A stretch of 64,000 nucleotides of DNA, taken from positions 7,223 through 71,222 of the forward strand of contig NZ_JBLXDO010000017.1 in the NCBI RefSeq assembly GCF_048263965.1. Reading direction: 5' to 3'. Position 1 is the stretch's first letter. Every line of letters begins with the position of its first letter. Below are positions 30,802-46,515 of the stretch, in pieces. A program made the position numbers and the translations under genes. Under the pieces are notes generated by a model. That model saw only the letters and a list, made by a program, of their open reading frames with translations. It did not search any database and was not told where the DNA came from. The stretch is from Ferrimonas sp. GTDB taxonomy: Bacteria > Pseudomonadota > Gammaproteobacteria > Enterobacterales > Shewanellaceae.

Positions 30802-30882
30802 AATCAGGTCGCTTTAAGCCCTCCCGGTTTGCTTCAGGCCAGATCAGCCGTTAGCTTGAGGCCAGAATCTGAGGAGGGCAGC

Positions 30883-31554: not shown

Positions 31555-31563
31555 GGAGTACTC

Positions 31564-31923: not shown

Positions 31924-31973
31924 GTCAACAGGTCGTTAGGACAGGAGGGAAGCTTAAAGCTGGTGCCGCCAGC

Positions 31974-34457
31974 TCAGGGCGTCATTTTTTTGAGCAGCAG
32001 CTCGGTGAGCCTGTCCGCGGTCAGGGGGCGGCTGAACAGGAAACCCTGTGCCAGGCGGCAGCCGCTGTCACACAGGAAGCCTGCCTGGCCCTGGTTCTCC
32101 ACCCCTTCGGCGATCACCGTCAGGGAGAGAGAGTGGCCCATGGAGATGATCGCTTCTACGATGCCCCGGCTGTCCTGATCGCCAGGGACACCACTGACGA
32201 AGCTGCGGTCAATCTTCAGGGTGTTGAGGGGTAGCCGTTTCAGGTAGCTCAGGGAGGAGTAGCCTGTGCCAAAGTCATCGATGGAGATGTGGATCCCCAT
32301 GCTCCTCAGTTGACCCAGACGGCGGATCGACTCCTCCGGATTCTGAATCATAAAACTCTCTGTCACCTCCAGCTCCAGTGCCGAAGCGGGCATGCCGCTC
32401 TCCATCAGCACCTGGCTTACCTCACTGACAAAGTTGTCTTTCAGCAGCTGGGGGCCGGCGATGTTGACGGCGATGCGGCCAAAGTTCAGGCTCTGGTCAA
32501 GCCAGTTGGCGCCCTGGTGACAGGCCTGCTTCAGTACCCACAGACCGATTTCGTCGATGAGGCCTATACGCTCGGCAGCAGGAATGAACCTCGACGGGGA
32601 AACCTGTCCAAGCTCTTCAGACTGCCACCGAAGCAGGGCTTCCAGACCCACCAGTTGACCGCTGTTGAGATCCACCTGGGGCTGATAGACCAGATAAAAC
32701 TCCTCTCGCTCCAGGGCGGAGTGCAAGGCGCTTTGCACCTTGAGGTGCTCCATGGACTCTTCGGTCAGGGTATGGGTATAGAAGGCGAAGCTGTTGCGAC
32801 CCTGCTGTTTGGCCCGGTACATGGCGGTATCGGCGTTGCGAAGCAGGGTGTCCCTGCTGCTGCCATCCTGAGGGTAAAGGGCGATGCCCATGCTGCCGGT
32901 GAGTTTCAGCTGCTCCCCTGTGCTGAGAGCCACAGGTTGCTGGAACAGGCTCATCAGGCCGCTGGCAACATTGGTGGCCGCAGGAGCCCCGCCCACTTCA
33001 GGAAGCAGAATCACAAACTCATCTCCGCCAATCCGTGCGACGGTATCCGAGCTTCGCAGCTGGTTCTTGAGGCGCTGGGCTATTTCACACAGCACCTCGT
33101 CGCCCACCAGATGGCCGCGACTGTCATTGATCAGCTTGAAGTGGTCCACATCGATAAACACCACCGCCAGTTCACTCTGGTTCCTGGTGGCACGGGCGAT
33201 CTCCTGGTCCAACTGGCTGTGGATGCGCACCCGGTTCGGCAAACCGGTGAGAGGATCATGGTAGGCCATGTGGGCCAGGCGCTCTTCGGTCTGTTTCTGC
33301 AGTGAGATGTCGGAGAAGAGGGCGACCAGGTAGCGGATGCCGCCATCATCATCGTATACCGCCGAGTGAGTGGCCATCTGTGGGTAGAGGGTGCCGTCCT
33401 TACGCCGATTCCACACCTCGCCGTGCCAGTGCCCCTGAGCCAGCATGCTTCGCCACATCGACTCGTAGAATGTCTGGTCATGGCGGCCCGACTTGAGGAT
33501 CCTGGGGTTGTTGGTCAGGGCCTCCTCTCGGCTGTATCCGGTGATGCGGCAAAAGGCGTCATTGACCTCGATGATGGTGCCGCGATGATCGGTGATCATC
33601 ACCCCTTCCGCAGAGTTGGCAAACACCGTGGCGGCCAGGGTCAGCTGCTCCTGGAATACCCGACGCTGGGTGACGTTTCGAGTCATGCCGATGACCCCCA
33701 GCAGCTCTCCCTGCTTGTCGATAATGGGGCTCTTGATGGTTTCCAGCCAGGTCTGCTGCTCCGGATCGCCGGGGTCGGCGCACTCCTCCACCACCATCTG
33801 TCGACACTGACGAATTGCCTGGTTGTCGGCGGCTTCAAACACGGCGGCCCGCTCAGGCCCAAACAGCTGGGTGTCGTTTCGCCCAAGGGGAGAGCATTGC
33901 CAGTCGCGGACCACACTCTGGTTGGCTGCAACGTAGATGCCTTTGGCATCCTTAATCCAGACATGATCCTCAATGCTGTTGATGAAATCATTGAGGGTGA
34001 TGCCTCTCAGGGCGGCGTCCTCGCCAGCCTGAGCATCCGTGTGGTGTTTCAGATGCCTGGCCAGATCGTTTTCCATTCGTCCACAGAGGTTGTCCTTGAG
34101 CAGCTTGGCATCGTCACTCAGCGCTGTCGGTCCATAGAGGCAGATGAGGCCGAAGAGCACGCCGTTGGGCCAGAACACCTCGTGGAGATGCAGCCTGGGA
34201 TCCCTGGTTTTTTTGTCCGACGTATAGTTCAGGGTGGCACGAAGTTGCTCGGCCACTGGGGTGAGGATCAGCTTCAGTTGTTCGGGTGAGCAGTCGTTGG
34301 CGTCACAGAGCAAAATGGGCTCTGCGCCCTGATCCACGTGAAGGATGACGCCTTTGGCGTCAGCGGCGTTGGCCAGCAGCCTCATGGAGGGGCGCCAGTC
34401 CTGGCCCAGATCTGCAAAGACGCTTGTGTCCAGCCACTCTGGATTCAGTACTGCCAC
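31974..34457 (-). CDS. PAS-PAS-GGDEF-EAL c-di-GMP enzyme
   Basis: Two PAS/PAC domains, intact GGDEF with RSSD I-site, EALLRW and DDFGTGYSS. Confidence 0.95.
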   Translation of the reverse strand: MAVLNPEWLDTSVFADLGQDWRPSMRLLANAADAKGVILHVDQGAEPILLCDANDCSPEQLKLILTPVAEQLRATLNYTSDKKTRDPRLHLHEVFWPNGVLFGLICLYGPTALSDDAKLLKDNLCGRMENDLARHLKHHTDAQAGEDAALRGITLNDFINSIEDHVWIKDAKGIYVAANQSVVRDWQCSPLGRNDTQLFGPERAAVFEAADNQAIRQCRQMVVEECADPGDPEQQTWLETIKSPIIDKQGELLGVIGMTRNVTQRRVFQEQLTLAATVFANSAEGVMITDHRGTIIEVNDAFCRITGYSREEALTNNPRILKSGRHDQTFYESMWRSMLAQGHWHGEVWNRRKDGTLYPQMATHSAVYDDDGGIRYLVALFSDISLQKQTEERLAHMAYHDPLTGLPNRVRIHSQLDQEIARATRNQSELAVVFIDVDHFKLINDSRGHLVGDEVLCEIAQRLKNQLRSSDTVARIGGDEFVILLPEVGGAPAATNVASGLMSLFQQPVALSTGEQLKLTGSMGIALYPQDGSSRDTLLRNADTAMYRAKQQGRNSFAFYTHTLTEESMEHLKVQSALHSALEREEFYLVYQPQVDLNSGQLVGLEALLRWQSEELGQVSPSRFIPAAERIGLIDEIGLWVLKQACHQGANWLDQSLNFGRIAVNIAGPQLLKDNFVSEVSQVLMESGMPASALELEVTESFMIQNPEESIRRLGQLRSMGIHISIDDFGTGYSSLSYLKRLPLNTLKIDRSFVSGVPGDQDSRGIVEAIISMGHSLSLTVIAEGVENQGQAGFLCDSGCRLAQGFLFSRPLTADRLTELLLKKMTP

Positions 34458-34666
34458 TCAGATGCTCCCCTAGGCTCAAACAGGCTACAATAAATAATGC
34501 CAACAATAATAAAGACTTGCCTAACGCTTTGGGGCGTCAGGCTGATTTTTATGCTGGGATTATCTCATTTCGCCGGACTATTGGGAACCAAGGCTTGTTC
34601 CGGGAGAGAAGCTGTACAAGGGCGGGGCCCCGGTTTAGGGGCAGGCGCAACGGCGGTGAGCGGCGA

Positions 34667-35092
34667 TCAGCTCAGCTCCTTTTTCAGAAAGAAGCTGACG
34701 TAGCCGGGGGGCATATCCTCCAGCTTGGCAAACACTTCATAGCTGTGCTGCTGATAGAACTCCAGAGCAAGGTAGTTGGTGGTCTTGATGAAGATGCCGT
34801 GAGCCCCCTTGGCATGGGCGTAGCCCTCCAGTTGGTTCAGCATACGCGTGCCGGCACCGCAGCGTCGCTTGTCCTCTTCCACCCAGATGCCATCCACATG
34901 GAGCCAGCCCAGTTTCACCTCTCCGGCGATACCACCGACGATTCTACCCGTTTCATCTTTAATGAAGCAGGCAACGGTTTCATGTTGCATGGAGCCAGCA
35001 ACGGCGTCGTTGAAGCCAATCAGCCCCTGCTTCAGGGCCTGAACTTCGCTCTGGTCCGGCGGGGATACCGGCGTCAGCTGTAAACTGTCCAT
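34667..35092 (-). CDS. GNAT family N-acetyltransferase
   Basis: LHVDGIWVEEDKRRCGAG, ALEFYQQHSY. Confidence 0.88.
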   Translation of the reverse strand: MDSLQLTPVSPPDQSEVQALKQGLIGFNDAVAGSMQHETVACFIKDETGRIVGGIAGEVKLGWLHVDGIWVEEDKRRCGAGTRMLNQLEGYAHAKGAHGIFIKTTNYLALEFYQQHSYEVFAKLEDMPPGYVSFFLKKELS

Positions 35093-35172
35093 GTCATTGA
35101 TCTCTTGGGCTGGGTAACGGGATTAAGTTACTGTCCACCTGGAGTAGTTGCAAGTTCCGCCGAAATCAGACC

Positions 35173-35544
35173 CTAGAACTGCTCGGAAAATTCGAGTTTC
35201 ATTGAAGCCAACTTCCAGTGGCCATCCCCTTGTCGGCACCACTGCTCCATGAGGATCTTTCCTCGGCCGATGTTCATCTGCCATTGACCACACAACTGGA
35301 CCTCATCATCGCTGATAAGGGTGACCTGAGTGTTCTTGTAAACCAGATCACTGGCTCCGGATTGCAGCATCCCCTGCCAGAAAGTGTGAATCTGCTCCTG
35401 GCCGGTGAACTGCCCCATGGGCTTAACGTCAAGAGACGCGCCATCGGCGAAACTGGCGACACAATAGTCGAGATTGCCGTGATTAAACTGATTGATCCAG
35501 TTCTGGCTGGCCTTGAGGGCGTTAATCAGGGTGTGATGATGCAT
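35173..35544 (-). CDS. SnoaL/NTF2-like small protein
   Basis: WINQFNHGNL...GQEQIHTFW...ILMEQWCRQGDGHWKL alpha/beta-roll pattern. Confidence 0.7.
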   Translation of the reverse strand: MHHHTLINALKASQNWINQFNHGNLDYCVASFADGASLDVKPMGQFTGQEQIHTFWQGMLQSGASDLVYKNTQVTLISDDEVQLCGQWQMNIGRGKILMEQWCRQGDGHWKLASMKLEFSEQF

Positions 35545-35628
35545 AAGCGCCTCCGGATAGTCAGGCCTGATGACAAAAGCATAACACCACCAAGTAATAT
35601 ATGCTGCAAACTACCCTTATCTCGCTCT

Positions 35629-36564
35629 TCAGTTGATCGAGGTGGTGTCCAGTATGTTTTTGATGGCTTCTTGGAAGTTGTTTTTAAGTAGTTCTTCCAG
35701 GGTTTTCATGGCTGGGTGCTGATACCAGGAGCGGTTGCATATGAAGCCATACTGAAAATCGATCGGGCTTCCCTCACAGGTGACCGGTCGCCAAACCAGA
35801 TTATGTTGGCTGTGTTCTGGGTAGGCGTTGCTTGAAAAGACAGAATAATCCAATTGTTCAGCGCAACGCAGTGCCGCCTGCATTGAAGCGACGGTTATGT
35901 TCGAACTCAGCTTAATGCCGTGCTCTTCAAGAATCACTTTTTCTAGATGCGGAACTTTGGCTCCGGAGTCAAGACTAACAAAGTTCATTTTTTGCAGATC
36001 ATTTATCTCAATCGCCTTGTTGACTGATAGTGGGTTATCGGCACGAAGGTAGACGCCGAGGTGAATGCTTCCGAGTCGCCTCTGAATGAATCGACTATCA
36101 ATGTCGAAAGGGAAAAAGTTAATTCCGACAGCAAAATCGCTAGGGTTTAGATCTGGCAGGCTGTCTGTTGGCCAGGCATGGAAGCTGAAACCAAGATTAC
36201 ATTGATGTTGTTTTAGCTCTTTCATCAATCCAATCATAATATGCTCGGTAAGGTAGAGTGGCGCGTAAACTTTAAGGCAGCCCTCCATTCTTTCTATGGA
36301 ACTCTCCGCCGATTGTTTTATGCAATCATCTAAACTTTTGACAAGTGGAGAGATTGCCTGAATAAGGTTTACGGCAAATGCTGTTGGCATATATTGTCCA
36401 TTGGACGTGATAAATAGTTCATTACCAAAATGGCCACGTAGTTGTGCCAGGCTACGATTAAGCGTTGAACGGCTCACACTAAGGTGCCTGATAATGGCGT
36501 GTGTCGTCCGATACTCGTTTACAGCCAATAGATACCTTACTAAGTTTAAGTCGAGCTTCGTCAT
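35629..36564 (-). CDS. LysR family regulator, divergent from the oxidoreductase operon
   Basis: LDLNL...VSRSTLNRSLAQLRGHFGNELF; AT-richer codon usage. Confidence 0.88.
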   Translation of the reverse strand: MTKLDLNLVRYLLAVNEYRTTHAIIRHLSVSRSTLNRSLAQLRGHFGNELFITSNGQYMPTAFAVNLIQAISPLVKSLDDCIKQSAESSIERMEGCLKVYAPLYLTEHIMIGLMKELKQHQCNLGFSFHAWPTDSLPDLNPSDFAVGINFFPFDIDSRFIQRRLGSIHLGVYLRADNPLSVNKAIEINDLQKMNFVSLDSGAKVPHLEKVILEEHGIKLSSNITVASMQAALRCAEQLDYSVFSSNAYPEHSQHNLVWRPVTCEGSPIDFQYGFICNRSWYQHPAMKTLEELLKNNFQEAIKNILDTTSIN

Positions 36565-37013
36565 TTCTTGTTCTCGTTGTAATTGAAGCACTCAGGCCGC
36601 CTGCTTCACAGGAGGCTATCTTACGCTCACCTTTGCGATATTGACCCAGGTCACAAAAAGGGCTGGTTGGATCGAGAAGGTTGACGACTACACCCGGGTA
36701 AAAGTCAATGCTCGGCATGGTTCAGAGACCATTTATCCATTAGAGCACGATATTAGAACTGATTGAATTGTTACGAGGTGGGTAAATATGTCCGCATTTT
36801 TGTTTGTTGAGCAAATCTGATGTTGTTTCTGGTTTGTCGGAGTTGCTATTTTCTATTGCTTCGGAGGGTTGCTCGTACGCTTAGTGAACGGGTTCATATT
36901 TGAACTTCCGTTGATTCAGATTTGATTCTGCTTCTAAGAAATACTTCGGCACATCGGCATTACGTATTTCAGAAGTCGATAGTTAATTAAATTGAATTCA
37001 TTGTGGAGCCAAT

Positions 37014-37898
37014 ATGAATATGGAACCAAAAAACCTTTTTGGGTGGTTACTGGCGGGGGGGATTGTACTGTTACTGTGCGCCATTGCCGTTGCAGTGTCC
37101 TCCTACGGAGGCAGTCAGGGAAGTGATGCTCCCCTGTTTTTTGACAGCCTGTCGTACTTTTTGCTGTTTGTAGTCGCCTGTGCCCTAATCTGCTCGGCAA
37201 AGTTGTCCAGGCCAGGTGATCGTATTAAGGGGAACCGAGTGCTTCGGCACGATGGTGTTGCCCGTCTGACTCATTGGACCACAGCCATGGGGTGTTTGAT
37301 TCTGCTTGCTACTGGTGTCGGCCTGGGCTTTCTTGAGTTTCCCCGTCTGGTGGTGAGTGCTGATGACACGGCTTTGATGTTTAACCTCCATTATATCGGT
37401 GCCCTGTATTTCCTGTTCGGATGTAGCCTGTGGGCCGCCAACCAACTGGTTGACCCAGACCGTCTGCGCAGTCACCTTCCGGACGAGCCGCTGTGGGTTG
37501 AGATTAAGAAATCGGTGCTTCACTACGCCCACATGATGGGGTTAACGCCAACTGCGGTTCCCGCCCCCAAGTACCACCACTCGGGGCGCTTGGCGGGTCT
37601 GGTGATTATCGGGGCTTCCTTTGTGGTTATTGTCTCCGGGGGCGGCAAAATCGTTGCCCGGGGTTTGGAGTTAGACCTTCTGATTATCAAGGTGGTCAAC
37701 CTCGGCCATGATTGGGCGGCTCTGCTCTTGCTCCTGCTTATTCCGATACACGCTTTCCTGGGGGGTATTGCCCCCTGGGCCTGGAACACCCTGTCGGGGA
37801 TGGTTACCGGATATGTGAGTGCGGATTACGCCAGGCATCACCATGGCCTTTGGTTTCGGCAACTGGAGCAGAAACAGCAAAGGGAGAGACAACAATGA
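37014..37898 (+). CDS. Di-heme cytochrome b membrane anchor (FdnI/YdhU-like)
   Basis: RLTHW, NLHY, NLGHD, IPIHA His ligands; KYHHSGR; two extra N-terminal TM segments. Confidence 0.8.
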   Translation: MNMEPKNLFGWLLAGGIVLLLCAIAVAVSSYGGSQGSDAPLFFDSLSYFLLFVVACALICSAKLSRPGDRIKGNRVLRHDGVARLTHWTTAMGCLILLATGVGLGFLEFPRLVVSADDTALMFNLHYIGALYFLFGCSLWAANQLVDPDRLRSHLPDEPLWVEIKKSVLHYAHMMGLTPTAVPAPKYHHSGRLAGLVIIGASFVVIVSGGGKIVARGLELDLLIIKVVNLGHDWAALLLLLLIPIHAFLGGIAPWAWNTLSGMVTGYVSADYARHHHGLWFRQLEQKQQRERQQ

Positions 37899-38584
37899 CA
37901 GCTAGGGACACGACTTCCGGGATGGACAGCGGCCGGCGCCATTTCCTCACTGCCTTGGGCAGTGTTGGTATGCTGATTGGACTCAGCGGCAACGCCTATG
38001 TATTGCGTGATGAAAAGATCTATATAAAGAGCGCCGGCGGTGCCTTGGTGGTCGATTTGAAGAAATGCATGGGGTGCGGCACCTGCATGACCACCTGCTC
38101 ACTGACCCATCATGGCAAGGCCTCAATGTCGCTGGCCAGGATTCAGATTCAACAAGATTCGTTCACCCCCTTCCCAGATGATATCCAGATGGCTACCTGT
38201 CATCAGTGTGAGGATGCCCCCTGTGTCGGCGCCTGCCCGGTCAACGCCAACACGGCCAATGAGGAGTTCGGGTTTGTGCGAGACATCGATCCGAACCGGT
38301 GCATCGGTTGTATGCAGTGCATCGAGGCCTGCCCCTATACCCCTAAGCGCGTGCAGTGGAACGCGGAAACCCGAAGTGCCCAAAAATGCGATCTCTGCGT
38401 TAACACCCCCTTTATGAGCGAGGAGGGTGGGCCTGAGGGGGTTCGTGCTTGTCAACGGGTGTGCCCGGTGGCGGCCATTGACTTTGTCACCGAGCTGCCG
38501 CCGGCCAGTGCTCCCGATGACGCCTATGTCGTCAATCTACGTAATGAAAGCTGGGCTCTCACCGGCAAGACCATCGAGGATTAA
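37895..38584 (+). CDS. Tat-signal 4x[4Fe-4S] electron-transfer subunit (DmsB/NrfC/YdhY-like)
   Basis: ATGA overlap; SGRRHFL; CMGCGTCMTTC, CHQCEDAPCVGAC, CIGCMQCIEAC, CDLC...CQRVC. Confidence 0.9.
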   Translation: MTARDTTSGMDSGRRHFLTALGSVGMLIGLSGNAYVLRDEKIYIKSAGGALVVDLKKCMGCGTCMTTCSLTHHGKASMSLARIQIQQDSFTPFPDDIQMATCHQCEDAPCVGACPVNANTANEEFGFVRDIDPNRCIGCMQCIEACPYTPKRVQWNAETRSAQKCDLCVNTPFMSEEGGPEGVRACQRVCPVAAIDFVTELPPASAPDDAYVVNLRNESWALTGKTIED

Positions 38585-38589
38585 GCGCA

Positions 38590-40788
38590 ATGAAGATGAA
38601 AGGCTTTGCTGGAAAGATTCTGCATGTCGATTTGAACAATCTGACCACTTCGGTTATCCCGACCGCCAAGTATCAACGCTGGGGCGGTGGTCATGGCTTA
38701 GGGGCCGCGCTGTTTTGGGATCTGTGCCAGGAGGTGGAGTCGATCTCCGATGGGCGAGACCCGCGTAATGTGGTGACACTGGCCGCATCACCCTTCTCCG
38801 GAACTAATGTGCCCTCTGCCGGAGGGCGCTGCGAAGTGACCGGCATAGGCACCGGCCTGAAACCCAAGAACTGGTTTACCCGCTCAAACTTCGGCGGCCA
38901 GTTCAGCGCCATGCTGAAACACGCCGGCTGGGATGCGGTGACGGTGACCGGTGCGGCTCCCTATCCGGTGTATCTGGATATCCGCAATGACAAGGTGGTT
39001 ATCCGCGATGCCGCCGGGGTGTGGGGAAAGGACACCTACGACACCCAGAGGATCATCCAGCAGGAGGTGGCCAATGTCGAGGCCACCGCTGGCTGGAATG
39101 CGCAGCTCGATAACAACGAGATCGGCCGAACCACTCAGAAGGCGGCCGTCGTCTCCATTGGCCCGGCGGGAGAGAACCAATCGGTGTTGGCTTCCCTGGT
39201 TCACGGCGCTGGCCACGGTTCCGGGCAGTGTGGTTTTGGTGCGGTATTGGGCTCAAAGAACCTTAAGGCGATCAGTGTCATTGGCACCGGAAGCGTCGAT
39301 ATTGCCGACCCCTTGGCATTGGTCAATGCCCGTTTCAAGACCCGGGAACTCTATGCCAACGACGCGGATAATGTCACCGTCCTTGGGACGCCCAGCAATC
39401 CCGATGCGGCCAATGTCCATCTCAATACAGAGGTGGGGGCCCACGCTTTGGGCAGCGCCTCGCGAGCGCTCCTGTTTGCTCCAATAAACAGCAACCACCG
39501 CAGCATCGGCTGTCACGGCTGCATCAATGGGTGTAAGCAGCGTCGAGATGGCTATGGCAACGAGTCCCACTGCCAGACGACGGTGTGGTACTTGGCGCCC
39601 GCGCTCCTGGCTGCTCGTGGCGAGGCGGCACTGAAGATGACCCTGTTCGATGACCGTAAAGATATCACCGAGACCATGATGTATGCGGCGGAAACCATTC
39701 AGCGGCTGGGCATCAACTCCTACCCGCTGACGGACGGGTGTCTATGGTTGGGAACTCTGGCCCAGTACGGGGTGATCGGTCCCGACAAGCCGATCAACTC
39801 CAATTTGCCCTGGCACAAGTTTGGCACCATGGAGTTCTGCAGGGCGTTTTGCGAAGCCATCGCCTTCAAGACCGATATTGGGGAGCTGCTGGCTGAGGGG
39901 TTTGTCGAGGCCGCCAGGGCCGTTGGACGGGAGCAGGACCTGAAAGAGGGAAAGATTCTGCAATACCCCTACTGGGGCATTCCCGAGCATGGTTATGACC
40001 CGCGGGCGGAGTTGACCTGGGGTTACGCCACCCTGATGGACAGCCGCGACATCAACGACCACGGCTATAACTGGATCTTCTGGAACGTCAATTATGAGAT
40101 CGCCGCGGGCATCGAGCATCCGGTCGATGCGGAAACCATGGCCAGGTGCTACACCGAGAAGATGATTCCCTATGCCCATGATCTGCCCCTGGCACTGGAT
40201 TTTTCAGAGAAGAATATGTACTCGGAGAATATTGCCAGGGCGGTGCAGTGGCAGATGCACTACAACCGCTTTTACAAGAACTCGTTGTTGATGTGTGATT
40301 TCCGCTGGCCTGACTGCTGCAACCTGAATCGTCCCGATTTCAGGGGGGCGACTGCCGATTCCGAAGTGGGTGAGCAGGTGTACTGGAGGGCTGTTACCGG
40401 TGAGGCGATTACCTTCGAGGAGGGAATTCGCCGAGGGCGTCAGGTTTACAACCTCGACAACGCCATATGGACCCTGCAGGGGCGGCATCGCGACCTGGTG
40501 AAATTCGAAGACTACATCTACGACAAGAAATATGATCACTCTAAGCTTGGCAGTTACTGCTGGCCGTCAACCAATGACGATGGTCAGTGGGCTTTCAGAG
40601 ACACGGTAGGACGCCAATTGGATCGCCAGGGGGTGGAGCATTGGAAGGATCATTATTATCGGCTTGAGGGTTGGGATCTGAATACCGGCTGGCCGACCCG
40701 GGCGACGCTGGAGCAGCTGGATATGGGGTTTGTGGCGGACCGCCTCGCCCAGGCTGGCAAGCTGGGTCGGGAGGGAGGTGTTCAATGA
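38590..40788 (+). CDS. Aldehyde:ferredoxin oxidoreductase family (W/Mo bis-pterin) enzyme, YdhV-like
   Basis: GFAGKILHVDL, IGPAGEN, GAVLGSKNLKAI, CHGCINGC plus LMCDF, YYRLEGWD...GWPTRATL. Confidence 0.92.
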   Translation: MKMKGFAGKILHVDLNNLTTSVIPTAKYQRWGGGHGLGAALFWDLCQEVESISDGRDPRNVVTLAASPFSGTNVPSAGGRCEVTGIGTGLKPKNWFTRSNFGGQFSAMLKHAGWDAVTVTGAAPYPVYLDIRNDKVVIRDAAGVWGKDTYDTQRIIQQEVANVEATAGWNAQLDNNEIGRTTQKAAVVSIGPAGENQSVLASLVHGAGHGSGQCGFGAVLGSKNLKAISVIGTGSVDIADPLALVNARFKTRELYANDADNVTVLGTPSNPDAANVHLNTEVGAHALGSASRALLFAPINSNHRSIGCHGCINGCKQRRDGYGNESHCQTTVWYLAPALLAARGEAALKMTLFDDRKDITETMMYAAETIQRLGINSYPLTDGCLWLGTLAQYGVIGPDKPINSNLPWHKFGTMEFCRAFCEAIAFKTDIGELLAEGFVEAARAVGREQDLKEGKILQYPYWGIPEHGYDPRAELTWGYATLMDSRDINDHGYNWIFWNVNYEIAAGIEHPVDAETMARCYTEKMIPYAHDLPLALDFSEKNMYSENIARAVQWQMHYNRFYKNSLLMCDFRWPDCCNLNRPDFRGATADSEVGEQVYWRAVTGEAITFEEGIRRGRQVYNLDNAIWTLQGRHRDLVKFEDYIYDKKYDHSKLGSYCWPSTNDDGQWAFRDTVGRQLDRQGVEHWKDHYYRLEGWDLNTGWPTRATLEQLDMGFVADRLAQAGKLGREGGVQ

Positions 40789-41201
40789 ACCCTGTTACAG
40801 GAGCCCAGGCTAAACATTATTTGCGTCAAGTTAAGTTTGAAGAGGCGATGATGGCCGCCATTATAGTTCGCCCAAGGGGGATGGCCCCGATGATAGTGAA
40901 TTCAGTCGAATCGTTGTACATCTTGTTTGAACCAAATAGTAAATCGGTTCCCGGGGTGGATTTTAATGAGCTTGAGCGATGGCTGTCGGATATCGTAGGA
41001 GATACAGAATTGGCTGATGCAGTTCACTATGATTCTGACAAGGGCACGTTTTTTGAACATTGTGTAAAAGTGTATCGCAAATTGGATATAAGGCTTCGCC
41101 AATATGCCTCTGCCATGAATATCCCCGTGCCTGAGAAAGAATCCAGGCAGGTGGTTAACCCAACTTTCACCCTGTATAAAAACTACGCAAATCATATCTG
41201 A
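40785..41201 (+). CDS. Hypothetical 138-aa protein translationally coupled to the AOR gene
   Basis: ATGA overlap after RBS GGAGG; soluble; AT-richer. Confidence 0.7.
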   Translation: MNPVTGAQAKHYLRQVKFEEAMMAAIIVRPRGMAPMIVNSVESLYILFEPNSKSVPGVDFNELERWLSDIVGDTELADAVHYDSDKGTFFEHCVKVYRKLDIRLRQYASAMNIPVPEKESRQVVNPTFTLYKNYANHI

Positions 41202-41213
41202 TAGATATTAATT

Positions 41214-41245
41214 GGTAAGTAACCCTGACTTCAGGGTTACTTACC
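41214..41245. repeat. 15-bp perfect inverted repeat
   Basis: GGTAAGTAACCCTGA-CT-TCAGGGTTACTTACC; no U-tract. Confidence 0.85.
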
Positions 41246-41276
41246 CATCTGTGGATGAAACTAGAGATTAGTCAAA

Positions 41277-42017
41277 ATGTATAAAATAATTAATATTGCC
41301 TTGATATTTATTTTCTTTGTTTCTACTGGGGTTTCTTCAAAAGAACTTCACAGCAAGGATCCGCGCAACTCGACCTCCAAGGTGGGGGCTGAGGTTGATG
41401 AGAAGGGAGAGTTGAAATTCCTTTTGGGAGGGGGCAGTATCAACTGGTACGAGGGAAGCGACAATCAGTTCGTCTTCCTGGCAGAGTACAAGATAGACTC
41501 GAGCGACGGCCGCTTCCGTTTTGCCAACTTCGACAGCCGCTTTGGTGGCTTGTACGGCGATTTCATCTATACCGATGATACCTCTTTGATGAGTACTGTC
41601 GGCTATATACTTCCCATTGATGCCAATAATGATAAAACACAATTCTTCCCAAGCCTGAACTACAGCTATCTTGATTTTAACAAAAGCAACCCAATTCGCT
41701 CTTTAGTGCCGGACGAGTTTGGTGGAGGTAATCATAGTCAGCTTTATAGTTTAAATCTGTATATTCTCCATCCTTGGAATGAAACCCACTTTACCTTTAT
41801 TGAGATGTTCGGTGGTCGATCATTTTCTGGGGTGGAGATCGAGATGTATGATGTGTGTTGGACCCAGGGAATGAATAGCAGCATCTTAGGCAAGCCCGCA
41901 TTCGTATATTTCAAGGGGCAGTATTCACGCACCGAGGTGTTTGGAAGTTTTGCTCCTTCCGGATCCGATAATAACGATGATGCGAAATTCAGTTTTGGGG
42001 TGGAGTTAAAGTTTTAG
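41277..42017 (+). CDS. Putative outer-membrane beta-barrel protein
   Basis: Signal peptide, aromatic/Gly-rich strands, C-terminal FSFGVELKF. Confidence 0.7.
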   Translation: MYKIINIALIFIFFVSTGVSSKELHSKDPRNSTSKVGAEVDEKGELKFLLGGGSINWYEGSDNQFVFLAEYKIDSSDGRFRFANFDSRFGGLYGDFIYTDDTSLMSTVGYILPIDANNDKTQFFPSLNYSYLDFNKSNPIRSLVPDEFGGGNHSQLYSLNLYILHPWNETHFTFIEMFGGRSFSGVEIEMYDVCWTQGMNSSILGKPAFVYFKGQYSRTEVFGSFAPSGSDNNDDAKFSFGVELKF

Positions 42018-42078
42018 TCCTAGCCTGAGTGGTAACCCCCCCTGCGACGAAGAGGGGTATCAATAAATCATTTAATCC

Positions 42079-42111
42079 TCGGCTGTGGAAATTAAAGGCT
42101 TCCACAGCCGA
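42079..42111. terminator. 12-bp hairpin between convergent genes
   Basis: TCGGCTGTGGAA-N9-TTCCACAGCCGA. Confidence 0.6.
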
Positions 42112-42124
42112 AGGGGAGCCGTGG

Positions 42125-42388
42125 TTAAGCGTACAGGCCCAGGTTTTCCTTGGCGAAGGCTTCGAACTCGGTGCAGCCGCCCACGTGTTCCTGATCGATG
42201 AAGATTTGAGGGACGGTTGCAACGGGGGCGCCCACGGTCTTTTCCAGATCCTGCTTGCTGATCCCTTCGGCATGCATATCCACGTAGCGGAACTTAAAGT
42301 CCTCACGGGATTCGGTCAGGGTCTCGGCGATCTGCTTGGCGCGAACACAGTATGGGCAGCCGGGACGGCCAAAGATAACTACAAACAT
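42125..42388 (-). CDS. grxA: Glutaredoxin 1
   Basis: MFVVIFGRPGCPYCVRAK, TVPQIF, GGCTEF. Confidence 0.96.
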   Translation of the reverse strand: MFVVIFGRPGCPYCVRAKQIAETLTESREDFKFRYVDMHAEGISKQDLEKTVGAPVATVPQIFIDQEHVGGCTEFEAFAKENLGLYA

Positions 42389-42516
42389 GGGACTCTCCTT
42401 TAAAACGATGGAGTATTTATACCACAGACGTCGGATTCTTCTAAATGGGGCAGGATCTCAGCCTAAGGATATTTTTCTTTATATTATAAGTGTTTATATT
42501 ATGTTAATCGGTATGC

Positions 42517-44232
42517 CTAATAGGCACTATCGGCTTTTCTGTATCGCCCCTGGTAATCAAACAGGGTTTCGATCACCTTCCAGCCATACTTCTCTTTGCG
42601 GGCAATGACGAAATCCGGGTGGCGGAACAGGGGGGCGGCGGCGACGACGGCTTCGGCATCAGGCAGCCGCAAAGGGGTGCCTGGGGACTTTAGGTGCATT
42701 CGGGCGAAGTGATGGTAGAAAGCGCCTTTCTGACCCGCGGTGGTAAAGCCAAAGATCTGATGCACCTCCACACCATCTTCGTCATGCCAGGTGATTTTGA
42801 TGCCCGCCTGGCCGGATTTCAGGGTGTGGGGGGTCAGGGAGAGGCCTGCGCAGCGCAGCACCAGGTAATCCTTGAGTTTAAGCACCTCTTTAAGGCGTTT
42901 GTCCGGGTCCACCAGGGCCTTGTCACAGGCCTGGCAGTGGCGGGCAGCGATGTCGTTCTCTGCCATGCAGTCGGGACACTCCTTGAAGCGGAACCGAAAA
43001 TCACACTGCTGCTGTTCCTCATCCAGCCCTTGGCACCGGCGCCCGTAATGCTCCAATAGCAGGCCATTTTCATCGTGTTTGCCCCAGAAGTGGTTTTTGT
43101 GGCCGCACTTGGGGCAGGGCACTATGGCCACCTGGGCATCGGCTTTTGGCTTGGGCTCGCCCACTTCAGGGGAGAACAGCGAGTAGCCATTGCCGGCGAA
43201 GTCCAGTACCAGGCACTCCTCCTTGCCCTCGGCGAGACGCAGACCCCGCCCCACCATCTGCTGATAGAGGGCCACGGAGTCGGTACGGCGCAAGATGGCG
43301 ATGAGATCGATATGGGGGGCATCAAATCCTGTGGTCAGCACAGACACATTCACCAGATACTTGAGCTTTCGGGCCTTGAAAGCCTGAATGATGGTCTCCC
43401 GCTGAGACGCCGGCGTCTCCCCGGTGATCAGGGCTGATTCTCCTTGGGGCAGTTTCGATACCACCTCCTGGCCATGACGCACCGTGGCGGCAAACACCAG
43501 CACCCCCTGGTGGTGTTTCCCCAGCTTACTGAGCTGGTCGCAGATCAACGAGGTGGCGCGCCCCTGGTTGATCAGCATGGTGTCTGCCTGTGCGTCGTCG
43601 GCAGGCAGTAACAGGGACGCCACGGCGCCGTCGATGACCCGGGCGGGCGTCAGGTAGCCCTGCTTGATCAATTGGCCGATGGGCAGCTCGAACACACAGG
43701 TTTCGAAAGGCTTGGGCTCTGTGCTTCTCAGGGTGCCATTGATGTGCTTCTGATAGACCCAGCCGCCGTCGAGCCGATAGGGGGTCGCGGTCAGCCCAAG
43801 GAGTTTTACCTTCGGGTTGGCCTTCTGCAGAGCCTGAATCACCCGGCTGTACTGGCTTTCTCCCTTGAGGCTGACCCGGTGACACTCGTCGATGATCGCC
43901 ATGGAGAAGGATTGGTCCATCGCCTGATCTGAAGCGGCCAGGGACTGGATGGAGGCGAACACCACCTTGCCGCTGGCCTGCTTCTGGCCCAGACCGGCGG
44001 AGTAGATGTCTGCCTGATGTCCCATGGCGGCGAGCTTACTGTGGTTCTGTTCCACCAGTTCCTGAACATGGGTGAGCACCAGCACTCTTCCTTTGGCCAG
44101 TCGGGCCAGTTCGGCGATGATGACGCTTTTTCCCGCGCCAGTGGGCAGAGCCAGCAGGGCAGGGGATGGGTGTTGCCTGAAGTGTTGGACGACGGCCTTG
44201 ACCGCATCCTGTTGATAGGGACGAAGCTGCAT
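42517..44232 (-). CDS. radD: DEAD/DEAH-box helicase RadD (YejH)
   Basis: MQLRPYQ, PTGAGKS, DECH, TATP, QMVGRGLR; Zn cysteines CPKC/CPDC/CQAC. Confidence 0.92.
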   Translation of the reverse strand: MQLRPYQQDAVKAVVQHFRQHPSPALLALPTGAGKSVIIAELARLAKGRVLVLTHVQELVEQNHSKLAAMGHQADIYSAGLGQKQASGKVVFASIQSLAASDQAMDQSFSMAIIDECHRVSLKGESQYSRVIQALQKANPKVKLLGLTATPYRLDGGWVYQKHINGTLRSTEPKPFETCVFELPIGQLIKQGYLTPARVIDGAVASLLLPADDAQADTMLINQGRATSLICDQLSKLGKHHQGVLVFAATVRHGQEVVSKLPQGESALITGETPASQRETIIQAFKARKLKYLVNVSVLTTGFDAPHIDLIAILRRTDSVALYQQMVGRGLRLAEGKEECLVLDFAGNGYSLFSPEVGEPKPKADAQVAIVPCPKCGHKNHFWGKHDENGLLLEHYGRRCQGLDEEQQQCDFRFRFKECPDCMAENDIAARHCQACDKALVDPDKRLKEVLKLKDYLVLRCAGLSLTPHTLKSGQAGIKITWHDEDGVEVHQIFGFTTAGQKGAFYHHFARMHLKSPGTPLRLPDAEAVVAAAPLFRHPDFVIARKEKYGWKVIETLFDYQGRYRKADSAY

Positions 44233-44598
44233 GGGGATAGTAATGGCTGAGAGTATGGGCATCCTAGCCCGGTGACGGCCTGTGCTCAAGCCGACTTCTG
44301 GATGGGGGATCCGTAAATTGACCCACTTATGGGTTAACTGGAGTGAGATCGCACTTTTAGTGAGTTGCGTTCGAAAGTGGTTCGCTCACGGTTTTGGTTG
44401 CCCTATGATGCTATGGCTCTCAAAATGTGACCGCATTGGTCAAATGCCGGCCAAGGGAAGTGGGATAATTACATTAATTTGAGGGCTGGCTTACATTGTT
44501 TGTTGTGGGCTTGTGTGGTGCCCCGGACTTTTTGCTTGGTGGATCACGATTTTTCATTAGCATGGGGTAAGCGATTTTATTCCGGGGGGGCGGCATCT

Positions 44599-46515
44599 GT
44601 GCAAAAGTTTCAATGGCTGAACCGCTGGTTGGGTGCAGACTCACTGACAAAGCGGCACAGCTACCTGCTGTTATCCGCCTGCTTTATTCTCTTCGGGGCT
44701 GCGGTCGCCCTGCTCTCCTCCTTTATCCATTATCGCATGCAGTCCACCAGCATCGAGGCCTCCATTCACCAGAGGTACAATCAGCTTAGGGAACAGAAGC
44801 TGGAGATGCTGCAGGGGCGTGTTCAGGAGCTGAACGGACTGGTTCTTGCCCTGGCTGAAAACCCGTTGATGACCGAGTATCTGGTGGCCCCTACACCGGA
44901 ACGCCTGGAGGCGTTGCAGTACCTGTTCAGCCTGGTGGCTCGTTCTCACGGGGAGCTGATGCAGGTGCGTTACCTCGATCGTTCCGGCATGGAGCGGGTG
45001 CGGGTGGACCGGGCCCGGGGGGGCGGTGAGCCTCAGGTGGTGACTGACGCCCTACTGCAGGACAAAAGCCACAGATACTACTTTAAAGAGACTCAGGATC
45101 TGGCTGCCCAGCAGTTCTGGCACTCCCGGCTGGATCTGAATCGTGAGCGTGGACAGCTTGAGCGCCCCATCCGCCCGACCCTGAGGGTGGCCACACCGGT
45201 CTACCTGGGCAATTACTTTGCTGGCATCGTCATTCTCAATACCGAGGCTCAGGCGACCCTGGACTCCCTGAGCCGGGCTCCGGAGTTTGATCTGTACCTG
45301 GTGGATGGGGATGGTGAGGTGCTGGTCAACCCCAACCCCAAGCTCTCCTGGAGCCGGTACCTGGACAACAGGCCCTCCATCAGGGAGCTGCTCCCGGAAC
45401 GCTGGGAGAGCGCCGAAGGGCTGTACCGGTTCAGCATCAATTCTCTGATTCAGAACGGGGAGTCACTGGAGCTGGTGGTGGTCCCCAGAGAGGACGCCCT
45501 CAGCGAGCTGATGCACGCCAATACCCTGGCGGCAATGCTGATCGCAGCCAGCGTGATTCTTCTCTCATTCCCCCTGGCCTGGCTGGCGGCGGTGATTCCG
45601 GCGGGGTTGCAGCAGCGGCTGCAGGATGCCCTGGCAAAACTGCGCAGCAGCAGAGAAACCCTGGATACCCACGTGATCTCCAGCAGTACAGACCACGAGG
45701 GGCGCATTACCCATGTGAGCGGAGCCCTGTGCCAGGTCTCCGGCTACAAACCCTGGGAGCTGCTTGGGCGAACCCATGAACGGCTTCGCCACCCTGACGC
45801 CCCCCAGAGCCTGTATGACGAGATCCACTCTGTGGTCAGCCGGGGTAGCAGCTGGCGCGGTGAACTGATGCAGCTCAGCCGACAGGGAGAGACCTACTGG
45901 GTTAATACGGTGATCACCCCGGATCTGGATAAGGAGGGGGAGGTGGCCGGTTACACCGAGGTGTCTGTGGATGTGACCGATCGCAAGGCCCTGGAGAAGA
46001 TGTCGGTCACCGATGACCTCACCAATGTGGCCAACCGTCGTCGCCTGGATCAACTGCTGGAGGAGGAGATGGAGCGTTACCTGAGGTATCGTCAGTTCTT
46101 CTCGGTGATCCTGCTGGATCTGGACAGGTTTAAGGCGATCAACGACACCGAGGGGCACCAGGCAGGCGATGCGGTACTGTCTCAGGTGGCCCAGTGCCTT
46201 AAGGATAATCTGCGTAAGGTGGATCATCTGGGGCGCTGGGGCGGCGAGGAGTTTCTGGTGATCTGCTCTGGCACCGAGGAGTCTGGAGCGGCTCAGCTGG
46301 CCGAAAAACTCAGGGTTAAGGTTGCCGAGCTTCCCCAGCCCGTAGGGCGTAGCGTGACCGTGAGTCTGGGCGTCGCCCAGGCGAGGCCGGGAGAGAAACT
46401 CAATCAGCTGATCAGCCGCGTGGATGCGGCGCTTTACCGCTCCAAGCACGGAGGGCGCAACAGGGTGACCCGTTCCCAGGGACAGTTTGAAGAGGATTCT
46501 CAGACTCTGGGATAA
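44599..46515 (+). CDS. Membrane sensor diguanylate cyclase (periplasmic Cache-like, PAS, GGDEF)
   Basis: Two TM segments around a sensor domain, PAS/PAC, GRWGGEEF with RKVD I-site; GTG start inferred. Confidence 0.9.
   Translation: MQKFQWLNRWLGADSLTKRHSYLLLSACFILFGAAVALLSSFIHYRMQSTSIEASIHQRYNQLREQKLEMLQGRVQELNGLVLALAENPLMTEYLVAPTPERLEALQYLFSLVARSHGELMQVRYLDRSGMERVRVDRARGGGEPQVVTDALLQDKSHRYYFKETQDLAAQQFWHSRLDLNRERGQLERPIRPTLRVATPVYLGNYFAGIVILNTEAQATLDSLSRAPEFDLYLVDGDGEVLVNPNPKLSWSRYLDNRPSIRELLPERWESAEGLYRFSINSLIQNGESLELVVVPREDALSELMHANTLAAMLIAASVILLSFPLAWLAAVIPAGLQQRLQDALAKLRSSRETLDTHVISSSTDHEGRITHVSGALCQVSGYKPWELLGRTHERLRHPDAPQSLYDEIHSVVSRGSSWRGELMQLSRQGETYWVNTVITPDLDKEGEVAGYTEVSVDVTDRKALEKMSVTDDLTNVANRRRLDQLLEEEMERYLRYRQFFSVILLDLDRFKAINDTEGHQAGDAVLSQVAQCLKDNLRKVDHLGRWGGEEFLVICSGTEESGAAQLAEKLRVKVAELPQPVGRSVTVSLGVAQARPGEKLNQLISRVDAALYRSKHGGRNRVTRSQGQFEEDSQTLG

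What the first reader, a model, noticed from the sequence alone, without database searches (positions are those of the whole stretch)
35629..42017. Membrane-anchored, probably periplasm-facing AOR-family respiratory module with its own LysR and outer-membrane barrel
Seen: cytochrome b > Tat-signal 4x[4Fe-4S] subunit > AOR-family enzyme with no signal peptide > unknown protein > beta-barrel, mostly translationally coupled, with a divergent LysR and AT-richer flanks. No Moco/Wco or tungstate-uptake genes are in the block. Known: classical AORs are soluble cytoplasmic tungstoenzymes using ferredoxin; E. coli ydhYVWXUT has similar parts (YdhV binds bis-Mo-MPT) and no established physiological substrate; Tat hitch-hiking via a small Fe-S subunit is known for hydrogenases. 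Inference: an aldehyde (or other) dehydrogenase exported piggyback, feeding the quinone pool, with a channel for an external substrate.
Basis: partly seen in the sequence, partly recalled or inferred. Interest (0 to 1): 0.68.

Follow-up and report, generated by a model that had tools for sequence, protein, structure and literature searches.

The report
Periplasm-facing YdhV-like pterin oxidoreductase island
A 6.5-kb gene block in a Ferrimonas genome encodes a membrane-anchored, outward-facing molybdenum/tungsten enzyme complex with its own regulator and outer-membrane pore. It fits an enzyme class described in 2026 whose substrate is still unknown, and it lies in a large unstudied sister branch of E. 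coli YdhV.

Summary
Window 35589-42123 holds six genes:
- a divergent LysR regulator;
- a di-haem cytochrome b;
- a Tat-signal 4x[4Fe-4S] protein;
- a 732-aa AOR/WOR-family subunit with no signal peptide;
- a 138-aa unknown protein;
- a 12-stranded outer-membrane barrel.

The block is a clean indel. The two nearest Ferrimonas relatives join the flanks directly.

Putumbaka et al. 2026 (PMC13328260) defined "Class V" tungsten-containing oxidoreductases: the WorS subunit carries a Tat signal, the enzyme is membrane-associated, and no substrate is known.

This enzyme meets the gene-level criteria of that class, but it is not a YdhV orthologue. It shares 25% identity with YdhV and scores 212 bits against a cut-off of 868. 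It belongs to a sister lineage found in more than 540 species genomes. The conserved core of that lineage is Tat-FeS, the large subunit and a small protein with no Pfam family or PDB fold match. The partner is either cytochrome b or an octahaem cytochrome c.

The barrel and LysR are confined to Ferrimonas and Shewanella. Substrate, metal and direction of electron flow remain inferred. The classical AOR active-site residues appear remodelled, so an aldehyde substrate is doubtful.

The parts
35589..42123 (.). Whole 6.5-kb module. It is an insertion/deletion relative to the two closest Ferrimonas genomes.
   Evidence: blastn of window 30000-46000 against G013 and G016: 34673-35588 is followed after 47-62 bp by 42124-44359. 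F. sediminum carries the module at the same locus.
35629..36591 (-). Divergent LysR-type regulator. The likely start is the ATG at 36564, giving 311 aa.
   Evidence: Pfam HTH_1 (26.2 bits, just under its 26.6 gathering score) plus LysR_substrate. No NCBIfam equivalog is reached; the best hit is YidZ at 41 bits. A syntenic orthologue is present in F. sediminum, S. abyssi, S. canadensis and S. pealeana.
36893..36945 (+). Conserved promoter/operator footprint: TTCATATTTGAA (36893-36904), TTCAGATTTGAT (36915-36926) and AAGAAATACT (36936-36945).
   Evidence: This is the only block conserved in the alignment of five LysR-operon intergenic regions from Ferrimonas and Shewanella. That LysR binds it is inferred.
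37014..37898 (+). Membrane anchor: a di-haem cytochrome b with two extra N-terminal helices. It is the presumed quinone-reactive subunit.
   Evidence: PF01292, 68.7 bits. FdoI/FdnI are the best NCBIfam hits. His87, His126, His232 and His246 are conserved in 93-97% of 29 homologues, and the 232/246 spacing of 14 matches FdnI His155/His169 (the FdnI numbering is from memory).
37895..38584 (+). Tat-signal 4x[4Fe-4S] electron-transfer subunit (WorS-like; resembles NrfC and YdhX).
   Evidence: SGRRHFL, then a hydrophobic region, then GNA; four Cys motifs. NrfC is the best NCBIfam hit at 95.8 bits. 33% identity to E. coli YdhX. ATGA overlap with cyt b.
38590..40788 (+). Catalytic Mo/W-bis-pyranopterin subunit (WorL) of the AOR/WOR superfamily, without a signal peptide.
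   Evidence: AFOR_N 163 bits and AFOR_C 91 bits. The cluster ligands C308/C311/C315 align with PfAOR C288/C291/C295, and C569 is invariant. 25% identity to YdhV over the full length. Tree placement.
40785..41201 (+). Small conserved companion protein of unknown function. It is either a private maturation/export chaperone or a third subunit.
   Evidence: ATGA overlap with L. Homologues lie directly after L in 49 of 72 loci across phyla. The family has 301 cluster representatives and no Pfam family. AlphaFold2 pLDDT is 86, and no PDB fold match reaches E<=1. No similarity to YdhW or YdhT.
41214..41245 (+). Perfect 14-bp stem-loop between the small gene and the barrel gene, with no U tract after it.
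   Evidence: RNA fold -30.2 kcal/mol, z = -5.3. Its role (attenuation or mRNA stability) is inferred.
41277..42017 (+). 12-stranded outer-membrane channel of the KdgM/NanC size class. It is the presumed substrate entry pore.
   Evidence: Sec leader and terminal Phe. AlphaFold2 gives 12 strands, pLDDT 76. Foldseek: NanC TM 0.55/0.65, KdgM E=1e-4. 59-90% identical orthologues sit in the same position in Ferrimonas and Shewanella.
42077..42114 (.). Hairpin between the barrel gene and the convergent grxA gene. It is the likely end of the transcription unit.
   Evidence: 12-bp stem CGGCUGUGGAAA/UUCCACAGCCGA in the fold of 42015-42125.

Best explanation
The block encodes an extracytoplasmic, quinone-linked Mo- or W-bis-pyranopterin oxidoreductase of the AOR/WOR superfamily. 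It is a Class V-type WOR from a lineage sister to E. coli YdhV.

Proposed mechanism:
1. The large subunit receives its pterin cofactor and [4Fe-4S] cluster in the cytoplasm. The 138-aa companion may help at this step.
2. The large subunit binds the four-cluster Fe-S subunit. The pair is exported folded through Tat on the Fe-S subunit's twin-arginine signal (hitch-hiking).
3. On the periplasmic face the pair docks on the FdnI-like di-haem cytochrome b. This wires the catalytic site to the quinone pool across the membrane.
4. A small solute crosses the outer membrane through the dedicated 12-stranded channel.
5. The solute, or its product, is sensed by the divergent LysR regulator, which acts on the conserved TTCA-N4-TGAA-type boxes.

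The more likely direction is substrate oxidation with quinone reduction, a formate-dehydrogenase-N-like redox loop. The substrate is unknown and need not be an aldehyde.

Shown here: gene content, motifs, synteny, indel borders and phylogenetic position. Inferred: export, complex formation, quinone coupling, direction of flow, channel role and LysR target.
For: - Domains and motifs.
- The Tat-FeS plus leaderless L pairing is conserved. FeS is adjacent in 68 of 69 loci and 62 of those 68 FeS proteins keep an RR motif. More than 100 of 120 L homologues start within 8 residues of the conserved N-terminus.
- A cytochrome b gene lies upstream in 26 of 63 loci, with four His conserved at 93-97%. In Malonomonas the partner is instead a Sec-exported octahaem cytochrome c. 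This places the enzyme outside the cytoplasm.
- Outer-membrane barrels recur in Gram-negative loci: KdgM/NanC-like in 4 and Alginate_exp-like in 4. The Gram-positive loci examined have cyt b-FeS-L or cyt b-FeS-L-small and no barrel.
- TatC, ModA, a TupA-like gene, two MoeA genes, MoaA and MobA are all in the genome.
- In the tree, {this family + YdhV} splits from AOR/FOR/WOR5 with aLRT 91.5 and UFBoot 95.
- The published Class V definition and genus list include Shewanella and Ferrimonas.
- FdoI/FdnI are the best family hits for the cytochrome b, which favours the dehydrogenase direction.
Against: - There are no experimental data for any member of this lineage.
- 28 of 55 loci with both flanks have no detectable cytochrome partner nearby. 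Membrane anchoring is therefore not universal in the family.
- The direction is not fixed by the architecture. From memory, PhsC-type cytochromes b drive low-potential reductions at the expense of proton motive force.
- Active-site positions differ from classical AORs: Thr330 for Glu313, Asn376 for Asp343 and an invariant extra Cys328. CsWOR41 oxidised none of 46 aldehydes.
- The hairpin before the barrel gene could uncouple its expression from the enzyme genes.
- No FNR-type box lies in the promoter region at up to 2 mismatches.
Confidence: 0.72

Rival explanations
1. Same complex and location, but it works as a terminal reductase. Quinol electrons, possibly pushed by proton motive force through the di-haem cytochrome b as in PhsABC thiosulfate reductase, reduce an external organic or inorganic acceptor at a remodelled, possibly Cys-ligated Mo/W site.
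For: - The invariant Cys328 lies close to the position of the AOR catalytic Glu, and YdhV has a Cys in the same short segment.
- BamB, an AOR-family reductase, uses a Cys ligand (from memory; not testable here).
- CsWOR41 has no aldehyde oxidase activity.
- The host genera are versatile anaerobic respirers.
- Multiple paralogues occur in one genome: two L genes in S. abyssi and tandem sets in a Bacilli MAG, locus L048. This pattern is typical of respiratory reductase families.
Against: - The cytochrome b scores best against the cytochromes b of formate dehydrogenase. These work in the quinone-reducing direction.
- No FNR-like box is found.
- Neighbours in other lineages (SDR, aldo-keto reductase, esterase, acyl-CoA ligase) suggest organic catabolism rather than respiration of an acceptor.
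Confidence: 0.25
2. It is a periplasmic aldehyde (or carboxylate-forming) dehydrogenase in the strict sense. It detoxifies or harvests electrons from external aldehydes.
For: - It belongs to the AOR superfamily.
- Glu325 is invariant, and a His (H491) and an RD motif are conserved.
- Most of the family keeps Glu at the position aligned with PfAOR Glu313.
- SDR, aldo-keto reductase and esterase genes sit next to family members in some Desulfobacterota.
Against: - In the Ferrimonas/Shewanella clade the Glu313-aligned residue is Thr.
- The pterin-binding Asp343 is Asn throughout the family.
- The region 430-650 does not align with any solved AOR.
- The one Class V enzyme assayed was inactive on 46 aldehydes.
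Confidence: 0.3
3. The twin-arginine motif is vestigial or serves only as a membrane anchor. The catalytic dimer then faces the cytoplasm, and the barrel and LysR are unrelated neighbours.
For: - Export was not tested.
- From earlier scan notes, not checked here: E. coli YdhY shows a degenerate RR motif.
- Barrel-plus-LysR pairs exist without the enzyme in Vibrio and Psychromonas.
Against: - The RR motif is kept in 62 of 68 homologues from many phyla.
- The alternative partner is a Sec-exported octahaem cytochrome c.
- The six genes travel together as one indel and are syntenic in four genomes with different flanks.
Confidence: 0.05

Closest known systems
Class V tungsten-containing oxidoreductases (clade 41) as defined by Putumbaka et al., Front Microbiol 2026 (PMC13328260)
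   Same: - A WorL large subunit plus a four-cluster WorS with a Tat signal.
- Extra membrane or cytochrome subunits.
- Predicted periplasmic orientation and a respiratory role.
- Occurs in facultatively anaerobic Gammaproteobacteria, including Shewanella and Ferrimonas.
- Substrate unknown, and the metal may be Mo or W.
   Different: - The paper does not describe this sub-lineage, its small companion protein, its outer-membrane channel or its LysR.
- The S. pealeana orthologue (A8GZ52) is in their tree but was dropped as an 'unmatched/obsolete' node.
- Whether the lineage falls inside clade 41 or beside it could not be settled.
E. coli ydhYVWXUT (YdhV, a bis-Mo-MPT enzyme; Reschke et al. 2019, cited in PMC13328260)
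   Same: - An AOR-family subunit of about 700 aa that aligns end to end.
- A Tat-signal ferredoxin; YdhX is 33% identical.
- A PF01292 cytochrome b.
- No known substrate.
   Different: - Only 25% identity. The score against the YdhV equivalog model is 212 bits, against a cut-off of 868.
- There are no YdhY, YdhW or YdhT homologues.
- Gene order differs.
- The cytochrome b is barely similar to YdhU.
- It has its own barrel and LysR.
- True YdhV equivalogs exist in other Ferrimonas species as a separate locus.
Formate dehydrogenase-N (FdnGHI) and thiosulfate reductase (PhsABC) of enterobacteria
   Same: A three-part design: a periplasmic pterin catalytic subunit, a four-cluster Fe-S subunit, and a di-haem cytochrome b with His ligands spaced as in FdnI.
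   Different: - The catalytic subunit belongs to the AOR/WOR superfamily, not the bis-MGD DMSO-reductase family.
- The Tat signal sits on the Fe-S subunit, not the catalytic subunit.
- The Fe-S subunit has no C-terminal membrane helix.
Classical cytoplasmic AOR/FOR/WOR5 of Pyrococcus and AOR of Aromatoleum (PDB 1AOR, 1B25, 6X1O, 8C0Z)
   Same: - The N-terminal domain and the CxxCxxxC cluster motif.
- The C-terminal GWD...G.PT motif.
   Different: - About 100 residues longer.
- The region 430-650 cannot be aligned.
- Exported with a Tat partner rather than using soluble ferredoxin.
- Residues at the Glu313 and Asp343 positions differ.
KdgM/NanC family of small monomeric outer-membrane channels
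   Same: A 12-stranded barrel of about 220 mature residues. It is encoded next to the genes that use the imported solute.
   Different: - No sequence-family match in Pfam or NCBIfam.
- TM-scores are only 0.41-0.65.
- The substrate is unknown.

Membership tests
AOR/WOR superfamily (large subunit) | AFOR_N and AFOR_C domains above Pfam gathering scores | tested here: met
   163.4 bits against a cut-off of 29.8, and 90.9 bits against 27.
AOR/WOR superfamily (large subunit) | [4Fe-4S] ligands CxxCxxxC plus a distal Cys | tested here: met
   C308/C311/C315 align with PfAOR C288/C291/C295. C569 is invariant in the family. Its equivalence to PfAOR C494 is by motif only.
AOR/WOR superfamily (large subunit) | Binds a bis-pyranopterin Mo or W cofactor | not testable with these tools
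   Cofactor synthesis and both transporter types are encoded in the genome. The metal content is unknown.
Class V WOR (Putumbaka et al. 2026) | WorS with four [4Fe-4S] motifs and a Tat signal and/or transmembrane domain | tested here: met
   SGRRHFL, a hydrophobic region, and 16 Cys in four motifs. The definition is quoted.
Class V WOR (Putumbaka et al. 2026) | At least one further subunit linking the enzyme to the membrane or respiratory chain | tested here: met
   A PF01292 cytochrome b is translationally coupled upstream. This is met at gene level only.
Class V WOR (Putumbaka et al. 2026) | WorL falls in phylogenetic clade 41 | tested here: inconclusive
   The family is sister to YdhV with aLRT 91.5 and UFBoot 95, but on a long branch and with few outgroups. 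The profile scores YdhV (194/178 bits) about the same as the three PDB AORs (181-186; FOR and WOR5 lower at 155-163). A8GZ52 lies beside clade-41 taxa in the published node list but has no clade label.
YdhV equivalog (NCBIfam NF007354 / PRK09849) and the ydhYVWXUT system | Score above the curated cut-off of the YdhV model | tested here: not met
   211.7 bits against 868. A true equivalog in another Ferrimonas species scores 989.5.
YdhV equivalog (NCBIfam NF007354 / PRK09849) and the ydhYVWXUT system | Presence of YdhW, YdhT and YdhY partners | tested here: not met
   No similarity between the small protein and YdhW or YdhT by BLASTP or hhalign. There is only one Fe-S gene, and it is closer to YdhX than to YdhY.
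FdnI/PhsC-type di-haem cytochrome b (PF01292) | Four conserved haem-ligand histidines on the transmembrane helices | tested here: met
   H87, H126, H232 and H246 are 93-97% conserved in 29 homologues. Their assignment as ligands is by analogy with FdnI.
KdgM/NanC-like outer-membrane channel | 12-stranded beta-barrel with a signal peptide and a C-terminal aromatic residue | tested here: met
   The AlphaFold2 model has 12 strands. The top Foldseek hits are KdgM, OmpG and NanC. The protein has a leader and a terminal Phe.
KdgM/NanC-like outer-membrane channel | Sequence membership of the KdgM family | tested here: not met
   No Pfam or NCBIfam hit. The resemblance is of fold and size only.

The most novel reading that the evidence does not exclude
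This lineage is not an aldehyde oxidoreductase. Its core is Tat-FeS, a large subunit with an invariant extra Cys and an Asn in place of the pterin-binding Asp, and a private small protein with no solved-structure match. It would be a separate extracytoplasmic Mo/W enzyme family that acts on a still unrecognised small anionic metabolite or inorganic species in anoxic sediments. In Ferrimonas and Shewanella the family has been packaged with a dedicated channel and sensor into a mobile 6.5-kb respiratory cassette. The small protein would be a new type of Tat-proofreading or cofactor-insertion chaperone.
Probability: 0.2. Interest if true: 0.8.

Novelty: new variant of a known kind. Interest (0 to 1): 0.5.

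Why it matters
Class V WORs make up about a tenth of the AOR/WOR superfamily and are prominent in gut bacteria. No member has a known substrate, and YdhV has been an orphan enzyme for many years.

This module offers a practical route to the answer. It is a compact, self-contained cassette with its own sensor (LysR) and its own entry pore. It occurs in Shewanella and Ferrimonas, relatives of organisms that can be manipulated genetically. It is also a natural presence/absence polymorphism between closely related species.

A LysR-promoter reporter screen could reveal the inducer, and with it probably the substrate. The conserved small companion protein is an uncharacterised family that may bear on how exported pterin enzymes are matured.

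Tried and rejected
- FNR/CRP-type box search in the promoter region: nothing at up to 2 mismatches.
- Small protein as a YdhW or YdhT homologue: rejected by BLASTP and hhalign.
- Small protein fold search against the PDB: no match with E<=1. No function could be assigned, and it shows no similarity to a TorD/NapD-type chaperone.
- Aligning the catalytic half (residues 430-732, and separately about 217-446) with solved AORs, to check the His448/Glu313 equivalents and a BamB-like Cys. Only the extreme C-terminus and the GSKNLKA segment align. Active-site statements therefore rest on a MAFFT alignment and on motif reading.
- Deciding clade-41 membership from the paper's supplements. The S. pealeana orthologue is listed only among unmatched nodes without a clade label, and the main table is truncated in the held copy.
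- GC dips as island borders: rejected. The low-GC genes are inside the island, and the same mosaic occurs in Shewanella.
- No direct repeats or integrase were seen at the indel junctions.
- Earlier scan notes held no look-alike of the large subunit by sequence.
- The ORF-based context survey mis-calls some starts and overlapping ORFs. The counts are therefore approximate lower bounds.

Full report
**Observation.** ORF listing and profile searches confirm six genes:
- LysR, 35629-36591 (-).
- A PF01292 cytochrome b, 37014-37898 (+).
- A four-cluster Fe-S protein, 37895-38584 (+). It has the twin-arginine leader MTARDTTSGMDSGRRHFLTALGSVGMLIGLSGNA and 16 Cys in four motifs.
- A 732-aa AOR-family protein, 38590-40788 (+). 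It starts directly at the conserved GFAGKIL.
- A 138-aa protein with no family match, 40785-41201 (+).
- A 246-aa protein with a Sec leader and a terminal Phe, 41277-42017 (+).

The cyt b/FeS and L/small junctions are ATGA overlaps, and 5 bp separate FeS from L. AlphaFold2 folds the last protein as a 12-stranded barrel at pLDDT 76. Its best structural neighbours are the small channels KdgM, OmpG and NanC. The description is therefore accurate.

**Limits of the module.** The two closest Ferrimonas genomes have flanks 85-88% identical in DNA. In both, window position 35588 is joined to 42124 through a spacer of only 47-62 bp. The 6.5-kb LysR-to-barrel block is therefore a clean presence/absence polymorphism whose borders match the finding.
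- F. sediminum carries the block at the same locus.
- Only 2 of 19 genomes of the genus have it.
- S. abyssi and S. pealeana carry the same six genes in the same order within unrelated flanks; S. canadensis has the same six genes.
- LysR and the barrel therefore belong to the module.
The cyt b-FeS-L core has 55-58%.
- The same mosaic is seen in the Shewanella copies, so it travels with the module.

**What is already known.** Putumbaka et al. (Front Microbiol, June 2026, PMC13328260) divide the tungsten-containing oxidoreductase (WOR/AOR) family into five classes.
- Class V is defined by a WorS subunit with a Tat signal and/or transmembrane domain plus further subunits. It is predicted to be periplasm-facing and respiratory.
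- It is found in Escherichia (YdhV), Shewanella and other genera. Ferrimonas appears in their genus table.
- No Class V enzyme has a known activity.
- E. coli YdhV prefers Mo. The Cetobacterium enzyme CsWOR41 prefers W and oxidised none of 46 aldehydes.

**Relation to YdhV.** The window's enzyme is not a YdhV orthologue.
- It is 25% identical to YdhV, although alignable end to end.
- It scores 211.7 bits on the YdhV equivalog model, whose cut-off is 868.
- Other Ferrimonas species carry a genuine YdhV (989.5 bits, 40% identical to E. coli YdhV) with YdhY-like and YdhW-like partners at a different locus. That locus is probably what the paper's genus list reflects.
- A profile of the window's family scores YdhV (194/178 bits) about the same as the three solved AORs (181-186 bits; FOR and WOR5 score 155-163).
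- A maximum-likelihood tree was built on 429 columns with five solved AOR/FOR/WOR5 sequences, four YdhV-type sequences and 22 family members. It recovers the split {family + YdhV} against the classical enzymes with aLRT 91.5 and UFBoot 95.
- The S. pealeana orthologue (A8GZ52) is a node of the published tree. It is listed beside clade-41 taxa but was left unclassified as an obsolete entry.
- I conclude that the lineage is sister to, or basal within, clade 41. It meets the gene-level definition of Class V.

**The family and its conserved core.** A scan of species-representative genomes found at least 542 genomes encoding a relative. The 77 best loci are 41-90% identical to the window's enzyme. 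They come from Desulfobacterota, Thermoanaerobaculia, Campylobacterota, Coriobacteriia, Bacilli, Anaerolineae, Aminicenantes, Nitrospirota and others. ORF-level context analysis gave these counts:
- An adjacent four-cluster Fe-S gene in 68 of 69 loci, with an RR motif in 62 of those 68.
- The small protein directly after L in 49 of 72 loci. This is a lower bound, because divergent copies are missed.
- A cytochrome b gene upstream in 26 of 63 loci.
- An octahaem cytochrome c downstream in at least 5 loci.
- Neither partner nearby in 28 of 55 loci.

The Malonomonas octahaem protein has a Sec signal peptide. More than 100 of 120 large-subunit homologues begin within 8 residues of the conserved N-terminus. 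All of this points to an extracytoplasmic enzyme exported by hitch-hiking.

Outer-membrane barrel genes recur in Gram-negative loci. The 12-stranded type is found only in Ferrimonas and Shewanella. An Alginate_exp-type barrel is found in Malonomonas, Desulfosarcina, Thermoanaerobaculia and Thioalkalivibrio. The Gram-positive loci examined have none.

**The small protein.**
- It has no Pfam or NCBIfam family.
- It has 301 cluster representatives among 1.84 billion proteins.
- It folds confidently (pLDDT 86), but no PDB fold match reaches E<=1.
- It has no detectable relation to YdhW or YdhT.
- It has no signal peptide.
- It is either a private cytoplasmic maturation or Tat-proofreading factor, or a third hitch-hiking subunit. 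I cannot tell which.

**Mechanistic reading.** The cytochrome b keeps four histidines (H87, H126, H232, H246) in 93-97% of homologues. The last two are 14 residues apart, as in FdnI. Its best family hits are the cytochromes b of formate dehydrogenase. This favours a formate-dehydrogenase-N-like redox loop: periplasmic oxidation and quinone reduction near the cytoplasmic face. A PhsABC-like reverse mode is not excluded.

The genome supplies all of the following:
- TatC.
- ModA beside one MoeA gene.
- A TupA-like binding protein beside MobA, MobB-MoeA and MoaA. It has a TTTS motif and scores 220 bits on the TupA model, below that model's cut-off.

Either metal is therefore possible.

In a MAFFT alignment the cluster cysteines match PfAOR C288/C291/C295. 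Other active-site positions differ:
- PfAOR Glu313 aligns with Thr330 in the Ferrimonas/Shewanella clade, but with Glu in most of the family.
- Asp343 of the pterin motif is an invariant Asn.
- An invariant Cys328 sits two residues upstream of Thr330. YdhV has a Cys in the same segment.
- Residues 430-650 do not align with any solved AOR.

An aldehyde substrate is therefore possible but far from assured. Neighbouring SDR, aldo-keto reductase, esterase and acyl-CoA ligase genes in some lineages hint at organic substrates.

**Regulation.** The five Ferrimonas and Shewanella intergenic regions share one footprint. It comprises two boxes, TTCATATTTGAA and TTCAGATTTGAT, 22 bp apart, followed by AAGAAATACT. 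It lies about 70-120 bp upstream of the first structural gene. This is a plausible LysR operator. A perfect 14-bp hairpin without a U tract separates the small gene from the barrel gene (z = -5.3). A second hairpin follows the barrel gene.

**Verdict.**
- New here: the lineage is separate from YdhV; the core is Tat-FeS-L-small; the membrane or periplasmic cytochrome partners are interchangeable; and the Ferrimonas/Shewanella version is a mobile six-gene cassette with its own pore and sensor.
- Still inferred: function, metal and direction of electron flow.

Noticed in passing
L002 5804-7987 (Shewanella abyssi): A second large-subunit paralogue, 72% identical to the window's enzyme, sits alone between LysR and the cytochrome b gene. 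Two catalytic subunits may share one Fe-S/cytochrome b module.
   Followed up: partly
L016 7622-11005 (another Ferrimonas genome, G001): A genuine YdhV equivalog (989 bits) with YdhY-like and YdhW-like genes, preceded by an FtrA/AraC-type regulator and followed about 1.4 kb downstream by an Omp85-family gene. No YdhX or YdhU was seen in the ORFs examined. G014, G018 and G034 (the last from another genus of the family) also gave matches that look YdhV-type.
   Followed up: partly
genome contig C1:60006-69258 (outside the window): A cluster of moaA, mobB-moeA, mobA and a TupA-like binding protein (TTTS motif), beside a sigma-54-type response regulator and a sensor kinase. A second moeA (C1:155.5 kb) lies near modA (C1:160.6 kb). 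The arrangement suggests separate W and Mo cofactor routes.
   Followed up: partly
L097 7001-8865 (Vibrio splendidus) and L098 5849-7639 (Psychromonas MAG): Homologues of the barrel (36-38% identical) lie directly upstream of a LysR gene, with no AOR-family enzyme nearby. The Vibrio locus also has a DUF1254/DUF1214 protein, a family that also neighbours the enzyme in Desulfocapsa and Desulfobulbus loci (L024, L026, L029).
   Followed up: partly
L005 10504-11505 (Malonomonas) and L024-L029: By BLAST clustering, the octahaem cytochromes that replace the cytochrome b group with the 165-214-aa ORFs found downstream of the small gene in Desulfocapsa/Desulfobulbus loci. The shared part is probably their N-terminal non-haem domain of about 170 aa. 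No Pfam match.
   Followed up: no
L048 (uncultured Bacilli MAG): Two tandem FeS-L-small sets, the first preceded by a cyt b gene, followed by a further cyt b-FeS pair, all within 18 kb. This suggests paralogue expansion for several substrates.
   Followed up: no
window 41214-41245: A perfect 14-bp inverted repeat (GGTAAGTAACCCTGA / TCAGGGTTACTTACC) lies between the small gene and the barrel gene. Whether it is conserved in the Shewanella copies was not checked.
   Followed up: partly
window 34667-35544 and 42125-42388: The island is flanked by a GNAT acetyltransferase and a SnoaL-like gene on the left, and by glutaredoxin and a DEAD-box-type helicase on the right. In the island-free relatives a GC-rich hairpin occupies the empty site.
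   Followed up: yes
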